Positions 30,001 to 33,000 of a stretch of DNA of 40,086 nucleotides are shown piece after piece. The stretch is taken from the IMG/VR virus record IMGVR_UViG_2563366968_000002. One strand, given 5' to 3'. Numbering within the stretch: the first letter of the stretch is position 1; each line of letters begins with the position of its first letter. A program made the position numbers. The stretch comes from a virus. Taxonomy: Duplodnaviria; Heunggongvirae; Uroviricota; Caudoviricetes.

Positions 30001-33000
30001 GCATAGACCAGCTCTTTACAGACATACGTCCCACCATTGCGCCCCTGAATGGTGATGACAGGAATACTACGGGAATCTCCCGTAGTTTCTTCTTCCAATA
30101 ATTCCACAAGAGCCTTCGTTTCAGGACGACGCATAAACTCGTGAACTTCCAGCGAACGGGAGGAGCGATTCTCACCAGCGGCAAGAAGAGCAGCTTTCTG
30201 AAGGTCGTTAAGACAGTAGTTAGATTCGAAGTACTGGCGCACAGAAACGCCATCAATTACAAGCAACTGATTCATTGGTTTCTCCACAAATTTTTATCCA
30301 CGAGCGGGACTGCACTCCCTTTTCGTTGATGCAGGATGAACTTACTGCGATTTTTAATAGTTATCAAGGATACACTGTTCATAAATACAGTATCTTTAAC
30401 GAGGTAATACCCAAATTTAGGGTGTTGCTCAATTCCGTTACCGAGTTGCTAATTTGCAACTCGCTTTTTCGTACTTACTGATAGTGATCTCGACCTTCCC
30501 CTCCGGGATAACCGGTCCCCACTCCACCAGCATTCTTTTCACCTGACTGTCGTCTTCCCACACACCCGCGTGGGTCAGGGCGTCAAACAGCGCCTTGTTA
30601 TAGTTGTCCAGATCGCGGATCCTGTTATCCGGAGGAAACAACACGATCTCCACTGAAGCAGGTGCCGACGTTGGTTTCGGCAGACGACGTAACTGCTCAA
30701 CTATTGCTGCGCACGCCGCGCTCTGGAATTTTCGCCCCGCCGCGCTTATCAGGCTCTTACCAGCAAACGCCCCTTTGTTGGGGTGTCGCCAGTACGTGTT
30801 CACGCTGGGCGGAAAAGGCAGTATTAGCTTCATACTTTCAGGCCCCTCTCATGTAACCAGTGGGTTGCACGCAGCCTTGCGTTTTCCTCACCGGCAAGCA
30901 GTGCGCGGATAATCCCGACCGCCTCGCTGTCGTCGTCCTTCATCGCAGTATGAAGCGTTATCCCCCGGGCCACGCCACGCTTTATCGTGATGACGCCTTT
31001 TTTCTCCAGTGCGCGAAGATGCTCCACCGCTGCATTCACCGAACGGTATCCCAGCATGGTTGCCACCTCCTGATTGGTTGGCGGGAAGCCACGTTCTTTC
31101 TGATAAGAAATCAGCATATCCAGCACCTGCTGCTGGCATTGAGTTAACGTCGTCATGCCGCCATCTCCCTGACCAGTTTTTCCGCCTGCTGGCGAACCTG
31201 CGCCAGAAACGCCTCACCACATGCCTCAAGTTCATCGCGCCCTATGTAGCTGATTGCCGGTCCCTTCCAGGTCTTGTCGAAAACAGCAATAGCACCAGCG
31301 AAGAAAGCACCTGTTGGCACCTGCTTTTCGTCTTTCGGGATAAACCAGGCAGGCAGTTCAAAACCAATACGCCCGCGAATAAAAGCAATATGATCTGCAT
31401 CTTCCGGCCACCACACTTCGCTGGTGGCAGCTTTGATCAGGAAAACATAGCGCCCGCCTTTATCACGCATGGCACTGGCATGTTTCATGATGTAACGCAT
31501 GCCGGTGATGTATTGCCCCTCATGCTGACTGGCGCGGCTGTACGGGGGATTACCAAAGGCAGCACCTTTAAGCTCCGCAAGACGTTCAGACCAGTCATGC
31601 GCCAGCGCGTTGTCTTCCGCAGTGTAATAAGCGGCACATTTGGCGTTATCACCATCAGTGAACAGATCCAGAACAAACGGGCCAAACAGGGTGTTAATTC
31701 CCCAGAAAATGTTGTCCGGCGTGCGCCACTGATCGCCCACTTCCTTCAGTTCATGGGCTGGTTTGTTCCGCAGCTCCACCAGCGCCTGGCAATATTTATT
31801 ACTCATTAAGCCCCCACGTAATTCCCTGACAGATACCACTCTTCACCCGATGCAGCGCGCTTGCTGCTTTTCCGTAAGCACCGCTCACGATGCGCCAGAA
31901 AATTGTTTCGTTCTGGCTGGGAGTGGCTTTCACGGAATGCCTCCATCCACACCGTTGCAGCTCGACGGAATAAGCCCCTGGACTCCAGTTCTTCCGCCTG
32001 GCGAGTCAGGCACAAAATCACCTGCGGGTCGTTAGTGCCGACACAGAAATTGCGCACAGGTCTGGTTTCACGAACTGGTTGTGGTTCCGGCTCCTGTGCT
32101 CTCTCAGTCAGGCGCGGGAAATGTCTGCGTGTATCTCCTTCACAACGGTGAGCCGCACGCCCACTCTGACGTAACTTGCTTGCTGACTGCAGAACGCGCT
32201 GCCGTGAGTAACCTGCAAAAGCATCCGCAATGTCTCCGGAAGTACACCCCGGATGGGCTTCAATGAATTTCTGAACTTCATTCAAAAGACTCATGATCAC
32301 CCCCTGAATCCTGCCGGGATCTGGCTGTAGTCCACGTTGTCGTAACTGGCTTTGAAGTACGGGTCCTCGCGTCTGGCTGCAGATACCGCAGGAACTTCCC
32401 AGGATTCTTCGAAATGACGATCCGGACCAAAGAACGTGACAGCCTGTTTCACAAATTGTGTGCCGCTGTTACCCATCGCAGATACCCAGCCCGCGTAGCG
32501 TTTCACACCTTCCAGCATGGTTTCGGGTTTTACCCCCTCATTCAAACGGGCTTTCCAGGCTTTGAAGGCTGCAGATTTTGAATTGCCACCAGCACGTTTG
32601 GGGTATGCCAGCCATGCCTGCTCAAACTCCGGAGAGTATTCCGGTCGGTTTGAACGAACTCGCACAGACTCATCAGCAGATGCACCAACAGCTATTGGTT
32701 CATTGACTGGTTCTTTGACTGGTTCAAAAGAGTGACTGGTTCTGGGTGAATCTCCTGCACCACCCCCTGGTGCAACTCCTGCACTACCTGGTGAATTTGC
32801 TGCACCAGATAGTGAATTATTTGCACTACCCCCTAGTGAATCTCCTGCACCATCAAGATGAAGGAGATAGATATTACTTGAGTTACCTTTTTCACCTTTC
32901 CGGGTGACTTTTTTTACCAGCCCGGACTCACAAAGGGCCGCAATATGATTCATCACAGAACGTTTGCTAATCTCGCACTGGTCAGCAATATGCTGGTAGC

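What the first reader, a model, noticed from the sequence alone, without database searches (positions are those of the whole stretch)
31806..32300. PerC/Pch-like regulator encoded in the nin-like region
The C-terminal half carries the PerC-family signature (E.LE..GLWRRAA..W). Prophage-encoded PerC homologues in pathogenic E. coli activate virulence loci, so this gene could link the prophage to host virulence regulation; the N-terminal ~70 aa are not typical of the family.
Basis: partly seen in the sequence, partly recalled or inferred. Interest (0 to 1): 0.5.

Follow-up and report, generated by a model that had tools for sequence, protein, structure and literature searches.

The report
yfdN: prophage PerC-family regulator gene
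This is the already-annotated prophage gene yfdN, a small two-domain protein (a DNA-binding-type winged helix joined to the short core shared with the PerC/Pch virulence regulators) that sits in half of all E. coli genomes, K-12 included, so it is ordinary and has no demonstrated link to virulence.

Summary
The ORF is real: window 31806..32300 on the minus strand, 164 aa from GTG, or 162 aa from the better-placed ATG. Its C-terminal part matches Pfam PerC (PF06069) at 34.6 bits against a cut-off of 22.6.

It is not new. RefSeq annotates the same gene as "yfdN: PerC family transcriptional regulator". It occurs in 2668 of 5426 complete E. coli genomes, and the literature calls yfdN the PerC homologue of K-12.

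The protein has two domains:
- **Residues 1-60:** a winged helix-turn-helix.
- **Residues 63-83:** a disordered linker.
- **Residues 90-143:** a three-helix PerC core. Only profile positions 5-56 of 90 are matched, so the C-terminal half of PerC/Pch is missing.

The gene is packed, with overlapping stop and start codons, between the replication initiator and Dam, a LexA-DNA-binding-domain protein and RusA in the early rightward operon. It is not a late-region gene in its own orientation like pchA. That position is kept in relatives only 23-47% identical.

The most likely role is a DNA-binding or nucleoid regulator made during lytic growth. A virulence role is untested and unsupported. Interest is low.

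The parts
31806..32300 (-). yfdN-type gene: 164 aa from GTG 32300, or 162 aa from ATG 32294. Stop TAA at 31808..31806.
   Evidence: ORF list, sequence, RefSeq annotation of 99.8%-identical copies as 'yfdN: PerC family transcriptional regulator', PHROG 1324 full-length E 5e-77, dN/dS about 0.2 against 51 close relatives.
32115..32294 (-). N-terminal winged helix-turn-helix domain (residues 1-60 of the 162-aa form).
   Evidence: AlphaFold2 model with H3-13, H19-25, H31-44 and hairpin 47-52/55-60, pLDDT 84-90. Foldseek superposes it on MecI/BlaI, MarR, ArsR/SmtB and Fur-family winged helices at 1.6-2.8 A over 58-68 columns, E 0.03-0.1. A profile search of PDB sequences gives BlaI E 0.0014 and MarR E 0.005-0.009. 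Weak MarR-type hits also appear in PHROGs and NCBIfam.
32028..32108 (-). Variable, acidic, proline-rich linker (about residues 63-89), predicted disordered.
   Evidence: pLDDT below 50 for residues 63-83. Length and sequence vary across the family.
31866..32027 (-). PerC core, three helices (residues 90-143), with the motif A..LE..GL.RRAA..W...ER...R..C.
   Evidence: Pfam PF06069 34.6 bits over residues 98-149. Columns invariant with PerC, PchA and PchE: A100, L103, R111, A112, R129, C139. Model helices 90-105, 109-122 and 126-143, pLDDT 91-96.
31809..31865 (-). Short conserved tail (W.L.G.YVG) specific to the two-domain subfamily. It replaces the ~40-residue C-terminal extension of PerC/Pch.
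   Evidence: Alignments A1 and A2. Low model confidence.
32297..33154 (-). Upstream replication-initiator-type gene (HTH_36, weak DnaD_N). Its TGA stop (32299..32297) lies inside the GTG start of yfdN and 2 nt before the ATG.
   Evidence: Close yfdN relatives follow either this allele (35 loci) or one only about 30% identical to it (35 loci).
31153..31806 (-). Downstream phage Dam methyltransferase. Its ATG overlaps the yfdN stop by one base (TAATG).
   Evidence: PF05869 156 bits.
30830..31156 (-). LexA DNA-binding-domain-only protein, 108 aa, the next gene in the overlapped chain. It keeps this position near yfdN-like genes in distant relatives.
   Evidence: PF01726 69 bits. Synteny in L006-L012 and in 71 of 75 close loci.

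Best explanation
The feature is the intact, selectively maintained gene yfdN of a lambdoid prophage.

Shown:
- The protein joins a winged helix-turn-helix (residues 1-60), through a disordered linker, to the ~50-residue three-helix core that defines the PerC/Pch family.
- The gene is the first one after the replication initiator.
- It belongs to an unbroken chain of genes with overlapping stop and start codons: initiator, YfdN, Dam, LexA-DNA-binding-domain protein, RusA.

Inferred:
- It is transcribed from the early rightward promoter. It would then be made after infection or prophage induction, not in a repressed lysogen.
- The winged helix supplies DNA binding.
- The PerC core does what it does in Pch, which binds many chromosomal sites and loosens H-NS/StpA/Hha silencing complexes.

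On this reading YfdN is a phage early regulator or anti-silencer acting on phage promoters and perhaps host promoters. It belongs to the PerC superfamily through the core only. It is a distinct, widespread two-domain subfamily, not a Pch-type virulence activator.
For: - **Identity:** Pfam PerC above the curated cut-off. PHROG 1324 covers the full length. RefSeq names the gene yfdN in 99.8%-identical copies, and 2668 of 5426 genomes carry it. Uhlich 2018 calls yfdN the K-12 PerC homologue.
- **Real gene:** 79 of 80 viral-contig relatives keep the same-length ORF, with median dN/dS 0.2. Relatives at 24-47% identity keep both domains.
- **Architecture:** AF2 models, winged-helix superpositions and PDB sequence-profile hits to BlaI and MarR.
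- **Operon position:** 4-nt and 1-nt overlaps on both sides. No sigma-70-like site was found on the coding strand between 30300 and 35500. GC is 54.5%, close to the window's 51.7%.
- **Conserved synteny:** the same neighbourhood is found in relatives at 23-47% identity.
- **Mechanism by analogy:** Pch binds DNA at many loci and displaces H-NS/StpA/Hha at LEE1 (PMC4764244).
Against: - No experiment addresses YfdN. DNA binding by its winged helix is inferred from fold alone, and the Foldseek E-values are modest (0.03-0.1).
- The PerC core has no significant structural neighbour (best E 0.44). Its best-ranked matches are TPR/MIT-like three-helix arrays, which are usually protein-binding modules.
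- YfdN lacks the C-terminal half of PerC/Pch. If that half carries the DNA-binding or anti-silencing activity, the analogy fails.
- The promoter scan is a crude consensus search. SfV's depositors annotated a dam promoter inside the homologous orf40, so internal promoters cannot be excluded.
Confidence: 0.55

Rival explanations
1. One reading: a Pch-like activator that switches on host virulence loci (ler/LEE or others), tying the prophage to pathogenicity.
For: It shares the PerC core with PerC and PchA, including all invariant core residues. Prophage-borne Pch proteins do activate ler. Uhlich et al. considered yfdN enough of a risk to delete it from their ler-lacZ reporter strain.
Against: The gene is present in about half of E. 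coli genomes, including K-12 and LEE-negative lineages. It lacks the PerC/Pch C-terminal extension. It lies in the early operon and is not an independently oriented gene like pchA. PchD and PchE barely affect ler, and a PICI PerC-like protein represses LEE1, so homology does not predict activation.
Confidence: 0.1
2. A replication accessory factor filling the slot that lambda P occupies. The PerC core or the winged helix would connect the O-like initiator to the host replication machinery.
For: It always lies immediately downstream of the replication initiator gene, often with overlapping stop and start codons, including in relatives at 23-47% identity. No helicase or helicase-loader gene was recognised in the early operon of this window.
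Against: Nearly identical yfdN alleles (95-99%) follow two initiator alleles only about 30% identical to each other in equal numbers (35 vs 35), plus unrelated upstream genes in 6 loci. The downstream Dam/LexA-like/RusA genes stay 95-100% identical. The gene therefore travels with the nin-like module, not with a particular initiator. It has no similarity to any known loader.
Confidence: 0.1
3. An ANR-like anti-activator. The three-helix core would bind and inhibit another regulator (AraC-type, H-NS or similar) rather than act on DNA itself.
For: The core gives a sub-threshold hit to NCBIfam ANR_neg_reg (20.3 bits, E 3.7e-4, residues 96-129). A PICI PerC-like protein represses LEE1, and its authors also noted ANR hits. 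The core model's nearest, though non-significant, folds are protein-binding TPR/MIT arrays.
Against: The ANR score is below its cut-off of 32. ANR proteins are small and single-domain, whereas this one carries a winged helix. No partner is known.
Confidence: 0.1
4. A regulator functionally coupled to the adjacent DNA methyltransferase and LexA-DBD genes, for example methylation-sensitive DNA binding in the manner of PapI.
For: A methyltransferase follows the gene in most loci. In distant relatives that slot is filled by unrelated methyltransferase families (PF05869, PF05063, PF02086), which suggests selection for the function at that place. There is a weak profile hit of the winged helix to a PapI-like protein, 2htj, E 0.025.
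Against: The methyltransferase is absent in 7 of 75 close loci and in L006-L008 while yfdN stays intact. The PapI hit is not significant. Conserved slots are normal in mosaic lambdoid genomes without implying interaction.
Confidence: 0.07

Closest known systems
YfdN of E. coli K-12 cryptic prophage CPS-53 (KpLE1); Orf40 of Shigella phage SfV; PHROG 1324
   Same: It is the same gene. Complete genomes carry 95-99.8% identical DNA under the RefSeq gene name yfdN. It has 96.9% DNA identity to the SfV orf39-orf40-dam region. The PHROG match covers the full length. The flanking genes are the same: replication gene upstream and dam downstream.
   Different: Nothing of substance, only allelic differences. 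None of these has a demonstrated function.
PerC of EPEC plasmid pMAR2 (89 aa) and PchA/B/C of EHEC O157 (104 aa)
   Same: They share the ~50-residue basic three-helix core, at 37% identity to PerC over 46 residues, with the same invariant residues. All are carried on mobile elements.
   Different: PerC and Pch are single-domain proteins that begin at the core and carry a ~40-residue C-terminal extension that YfdN lacks. YfdN adds an N-terminal winged helix and a linker. perC lies in a plasmid regulatory operon and is AT-rich (34.8% GC). pchA lies in the late region of prophage Sp4 in the opposite orientation to its neighbours. yfdN lies in the early operon at 54.5% GC. Only PerC and group 1 Pch are shown ler activators.
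PchE (90 aa, prophage Sp7) and PICI-encoded PerC-like proteins
   Same: They have the same PerC core, sit on phage-related elements next to replication-type genes, and show no or negative effects on LEE.
   Different: They are also single-domain, with the PerC-type C-terminal extension. PchE is acidic (pI 5.7) whereas YfdN is basic (pI 9.4).
ANR (AraC negative regulator) family, NF033650
   Same: Weak similarity over the first two core helices.
   Different: The score is below the family cut-off, the size is different, and there is an extra winged helix.
Small winged-helix DNA-binding domains (BlaI/MecI, MarR, ArsR types)
   Same: The N-terminal 60 residues have the same fold.
   Different: No Pfam model of these families matched at E<=10. 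YfdN has no dimerisation helices or sensor domain of those families.

Membership tests
PerC (Pfam PF06069) | Profile match above the curated gathering score | tested here: met
   34.6 bits against a cut-off of 22.6, E 2.4e-8
PerC (Pfam PF06069) | Core motif A..LE..G.[YFW]RRAA..W ... ER ... R..C | tested here: met
   A100, L103, R111, A112, R129 and C139 are invariant with PerC, PchA, PchE and 11 other sequences
PerC (Pfam PF06069) | Full-length coverage of the 90-position profile, meaning a single-domain protein of about 90-105 aa with the C-terminal extension | tested here: not met
   Only profile positions 5-56 are matched. The extension present in PerC, PchA and PchE is absent, and a 95-residue N-terminal region is added
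PerC/Pch functional group (LEE1/ler activators) | Activates the ler (LEE1) promoter | not testable with these tools
   No assay of YfdN was found in the literature searched. It was deleted as a precaution in a reporter strain
PerC/Pch functional group (LEE1/ler activators) | Carried as an independently oriented accessory gene or in a virulence-plasmid regulatory operon | tested here: not met
   yfdN is overlapped on both sides within the early operon. pchA lies in the opposite orientation in the late region, and perC lies in perABC
YfdN-type two-domain subfamily (PHROG 1324) | Full-length match with winged helix + linker + PerC core + W.L.G.YVG tail | tested here: met
   PHROG 1324 E 5e-77 over residues 1-161. 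Alignment with 31 relatives down to 24% identity
YfdN-type two-domain subfamily (PHROG 1324) | Position directly after the replication initiator and before methyltransferase / LexA-DBD / RusA | tested here: met
   Window; L006-L012; 80 viral contigs
ANR family (NF033650) | Profile match above the curated cut-off | tested here: not met
   20.3 bits against a cut-off of 32
Winged helix-turn-helix fold (N-terminal domain) | H1-S1-H2-H3-hairpin topology that superposes on solved winged helices | tested here: met
   Model topology. Rmsd 1.6-2.8 A over 58-68 columns with MecI, BlaI, MarR and SmtB, with modest E-values of 0.03-0.1. BlaI E 0.0014 by sequence profile
Anti-phage defence systems (PADLOC) | Match to any defence-protein model | tested here: not met
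   No hit for YfdN

The most novel reading that the evidence does not exclude
The two-domain YfdN type may be the ancestral phage form of the PerC family. It would be a core early-operon protein of lambdoid phages that uses a winged helix to target a PerC anti-silencing or protein-binding module to phage or host DNA during lytic growth. The single-domain PerC/Pch virulence regulators would then be truncated, re-deployed derivatives. If so, half of all E. coli strains carry an inducible, uncharacterised nucleoid or transcription modulator that fires on prophage induction.
Probability: 0.2. Interest if true: 0.45.

Novelty: already known. Interest (0 to 1): 0.15.

Why it matters
It matters little as a discovery. 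The gene and its family assignment are already in RefSeq, PHROGs and the literature, and the copy here is an ordinary allele.

The useful outcome is a caution. A PerC-family label on a prophage gene does not imply virulence regulation. This subfamily shares only the ~50-residue core, has an extra winged helix, sits in the early operon, and is common in non-pathogenic strains.

YfdN remains functionally uncharacterised despite its abundance. A direct test (ChIP-seq or RNA-seq, a ler reporter, phage deletion) would be cheap. It could also clarify what the PerC core does mechanistically, which the 2016 Pch study still described as poorly understood.

Tried and rejected
- **tblastn of the C-terminal domain against plasmids:** it found yfdN-like copies and other PerC-family genes but not EPEC perC. 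I fetched perC by accession instead.
- **Porter et al. 2005 (PMC543544):** this paper tested PerC-like proteins, but it is not held in the library.
- **The search for related loci with the diverse alignment A1:** With the tighter alignment A3 it returned only 95-99% relatives. Distant synteny had to come from the look-up of encoding contigs.
- **Foldseek of the isolated PerC-core model against PDB:** no significant match, best E 0.44. No fold assignment is claimed beyond 'three-helix, TPR/MIT-like at best'.
- **afdb50 library:** unavailable.
- **BFVD search:** gave only generic winged-helix hits.
- **PADLOC:** no hit for YfdN, so a defence role was rejected for lack of evidence.
- **Replication-partner idea:** considered because of the fixed position behind the initiator. 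Downgraded because near-identical yfdN alleles follow initiators only about 30% identical to each other.
- **PapI/Dam coupling:** considered, but the PapI-like hit is insignificant (E 0.025) and Dam is dispensable in some loci.
- **High-throughput mentions of yfdN:** a glycogen-excess phenotype on overexpression, a listing in a nitric-oxide transcriptome, a filamentation-screen region, and a predicted-interactome cluster 'negative regulation of transcription'. These are non-specific and carried little weight.
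Full report
**Observation**

The window has an intact ORF at 31806..32300 on the minus strand, 164 aa from a GTG.
- The sequence at the start reads, on the coding strand, AGGGGGTGATCATG. The TGA inside it (32299..32297) is the stop of the upstream gene.
- The GTG start overlaps that stop by 4 nt.
- An ATG two codons further on (32294) has an AGGGGG Shine-Dalgarno-like element 5 nt upstream. It corresponds to the MSL start of the divergent homologues. The 162-aa form is therefore the likelier product. RefSeq uses the 164-aa form.
- The stop TAA (31808..31806) overlaps by one base the ATG of the next gene (TAATG).

**Profile tests**
- Pfam PerC (PF06069) matches at 34.6 bits, E 2.4e-8, above the gathering score of 22.6. 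The match covers only residues 98-149, which is profile positions 5-56 of 90.
- NCBIfam gives only a sub-threshold ANR_neg_reg hit (20.3 bits against a cut-off of 32) on the same helices, plus a weak MarR-type hit on the N-terminus.
- PHROG 1324 ('transcriptional activator') matches the full length at E 5e-77. Other PHROGs correspond to the N-terminal or C-terminal halves alone.

**It is a known gene**
- Megablast finds the ORF in 2668 of 5426 complete E. coli genomes, with 2547 covering at least 80% of it, mostly at 95-99% identity. The best hits (99.8%) are annotated 'yfdN: PerC family transcriptional regulator', flanked by 'helix-turn-helix domain-containing protein' and 'phage N-6-adenine-methyltransferase'.
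- In the phage collection, the 1301-base query spanning the gene and its flanks (window 31400-32700) matches 49 records at 95-99%. These include SfV (orf39 replication protein, orf40 unknown/'transcriptional activator', dam), mEp460 and several Stx2-converting phages.
- The protein database returns about 200 relatives, nearly all named 'PerC family transcriptional regulator' and some 'CPS-53 (KpLE1) prophage protein'.
- Uhlich et al. 2018 (PMC5931665) call yfdN 'the K12 unique PerC homologue'. They deleted it from their MG1655 ler-lacZ reporter strain before testing the five O157 Pch proteins. They did not test YfdN itself.
- Other mentions of yfdN are incidental.

**Anatomy of the protein**

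I aligned the protein with 31 relatives. These included clusters at 24-47% identity found by an exhaustive phmmer search of 1.84 billion representatives. The AlphaFold2 model from this alignment has mean pLDDT 79. It contains:
- a winged helix-turn-helix: H3-13, a short strand, H19-25, H31-44 and a hairpin at 47-52/55-60, with pLDDT 84-90;
- a disordered linker at 63-83, with pLDDT below 50;
- three helices at 90-105, 109-122 and 126-143, with pLDDT 91-95.

Evidence for the N-terminal fold:
- Foldseek against the PDB superposes the N-terminal domain on MecI/BlaI, MarR/MepR/SlyA, ArsR/SmtB and Fur-family winged helices at 1.6-2.8 A over 58-68 columns. E-values are modest (0.03-0.1), as expected for a 60-residue domain.
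- A sequence-profile search of the PDB gives the same picture: BlaI E 0.0014 and MarR E 0.005-0.009.

Evidence on the C-terminal core:
- Modelled alone, the C-terminal 78 residues give three helices at pLDDT 91-96.
- That model has no significant structural neighbour. The best E-value is 0.44, and the top-ranked matches are TPR/MIT-like three-helix arrays.
- I therefore make no fold assignment, and only note that nothing resembling a classical DNA-binding motif appears there.

Both structured domains are basic, with pI 9.8 and 9.7.

**Comparison with the founders of the family**

I retrieved EPEC PerC (pMAR2, 89 aa), PchA (Sakai ECs_1091, 104 aa) and PchE (ECs_1588, 90 aa).
- YfdN aligns to PerC at 37% identity over residues 98-143.
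- In a 15-sequence alignment, A100, L103, R111, A112, R129 and C139 are invariant.
- PerC, PchA and PchE start at the core and continue with a ~40-residue extension (D....K.AV......MG......FR.Y). YfdN lacks it. YfdN-type proteins instead end in W.L.G.YVG and carry the N-terminal winged helix.
- YfdN is thus a PerC-superfamily member through the core only. It belongs to a separate two-domain subfamily.

**Genomic setting**

The window is a lambdoid prophage read right-to-left: tail, head, terminase, lysis, SASA esterase, tRNAs, Q, nin-like genes, replication, then the cro/cI-like immunity region.

From the CII-like YmfL gene down to RusA the minus-strand genes overlap or abut:
- YmfL 34478..35062
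- Rha/Ash 33333..34481
- a 74-aa ORF 33112..33336
- the HTH_36 initiator 32297..33154
- YfdN
- Dam 31153..31806
- the LexA-DBD protein 30830..31156
- RusA 30438..30833

A consensus scan finds no sigma-70-like site on that strand between 30300 and 35500. GC content is 54.5% against 51.7% for the window. I infer that yfdN is expressed as part of the early rightward operon after induction or infection. This step is inferred, not shown. SfV's depositors did mark a dam promoter inside orf40.

By contrast, pchA lies in the late region of prophage Sp4 in the opposite orientation to its neighbours. perC lies in the plasmid perABC operon at 34.8% GC.

**Synteny in relatives**

Four divergent relatives, at 47%, 35%, 30% and 23% identity, all sit directly after a replication-initiator-type gene. 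That gene is of the HTH_36/Phg_2220_C type, or an unassigned 353-aa protein. The relatives sit before a LexA_DNA_bind protein and RusA. In between lies either no methyltransferase (L006-8), an MT-A70 enzyme (L009) or a D12-class enzyme (L010-12). The window has a PF05869 Dam in that slot.

Among 80 close relatives from viral contigs:
- The upstream initiator is the window's allele in 35 loci.
- It is an allele only about 30% identical in another 35 loci.
- It is unrelated except for its last ~33 residues in 6 loci.
- Downstream, 64 of 75 evaluable loci have Dam then the LexA-like gene, and 7 have the LexA-like gene directly.

The gene therefore travels with the nin-like module and is indifferent to which initiator precedes it. 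This argues against a specific initiator-partner (lambda P-like) role, even though no helicase loader was recognised in this operon.

The ORF is intact and of the same length in 79 of 80 loci. Median dN/dS is about 0.2, so it is under purifying selection.

**Mechanism**

What is known for the family comes from the literature.
- Pch binds many chromosomal sites and relieves H-NS/StpA/Hha silencing at LEE1. No Pch-H-NS interaction was detected (PMC4764244).
- Only PerC and PchA/B/C activate ler. PchD has no effect and PchE less than 2-fold. PchE represses csgD and curli.
- A PICI-encoded PerC-like protein represses LEE1, and its authors also saw ANR-family hits (PMC11773190).

By analogy, and given a fused winged helix, I think YfdN is most likely a DNA-binding regulator or nucleoid modulator made early in lytic development (confidence about 0.55 for the package; the identity part is near-certain).

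The rivals, each at 0.1 or below, are:
- a Pch-like virulence activator;
- a replication accessory factor;
- an ANR-like anti-activator acting through protein-protein contacts;
- a factor coupled to the neighbouring methyltransferase and LexA-DBD genes.

None can be excluded computationally. The experiments listed would separate them.

**Verdict**

The gene is the already-annotated, very common yfdN. The suggested virulence link has no support beyond shared core homology. I rate novelty as 'already known' and interest as low (0.15). The residual point of interest is that this abundant two-domain PerC-core protein has never been characterised.

Noticed in passing
window 30830..31156 (-): A 108-aa protein consisting only of the LexA DNA-binding domain (PF01726, 69 bits), with no S24 peptidase domain. 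It is translationally coupled to Dam and RusA. It keeps its place one or two genes downstream of yfdN-like genes even in relatives at 23-47% identity. It could be a non-cleavable LexA mimic. Its function is unknown.
   Followed up: partly
window 31153..31806 (-); L009:1912-2580; L010:4163-5050; L011:4444-5268: The slot between the yfdN-like and LexA-like genes holds three unrelated DNA methyltransferase families in different phages: PF05869 Dam here, PF05063 MT-A70 and PF02086 D12. It is empty in L006-8 and in 7 of 75 close relatives. This is non-orthologous replacement at a fixed position.
   Followed up: partly
window 32297..32400 (-), 3' end of the replication gene; L047, L052, L054, L063, L085, L090, L006-L008: Where the upstream gene is otherwise unrelated, its last ~24-33 residues are still 79-83% identical to the window's initiator. 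This marks a mosaic recombination junction just upstream of yfdN. Near-identical yfdN alleles follow two initiator alleles only about 30% identical to each other (35 vs 35 loci).
   Followed up: partly
window 23326..28460 (-): The layout is typical of Stx-converting phages: Q antiterminator 28074..28460, tRNA-Met(cat)/Arg(tcg)/Arg(tct) at 25780..26029, and a SASA (NanS-p-like) esterase at 23326..25287. No ORF of 90 aa or more other than a 125-aa TTG ORF (25525..25902) overlapping two of the tRNA genes lies between the tRNAs and the esterase, so no stx A-subunit-sized ORF is there.
   Followed up: partly
window 36400..37485 (+): A ParA-family ATPase gene (named by RefSeq in a 98%-identical prophage) sits next to the cI-like repressor (35404..36165), in the immunity/early-left region of an integrated lambdoid prophage. 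There was no PADLOC hit.
   Followed up: no
window 33333..34481 (-): A 382-aa protein combines an Ash domain (PF10554) and a Rha domain (PF09669) between the CII-like YmfL gene and the replication gene. In a 98%-identical prophage (strain 582) two Rha-family genes sit there instead of one.
   Followed up: no
window 28463..29458 (-): A DUF968 protein with a borderline HNHc_6 nuclease match (26.6 bits, at the cut-off) lies immediately upstream of Q. It is conserved in this position in the distant relatives L006-L008, L011 and L012.
   Followed up: no
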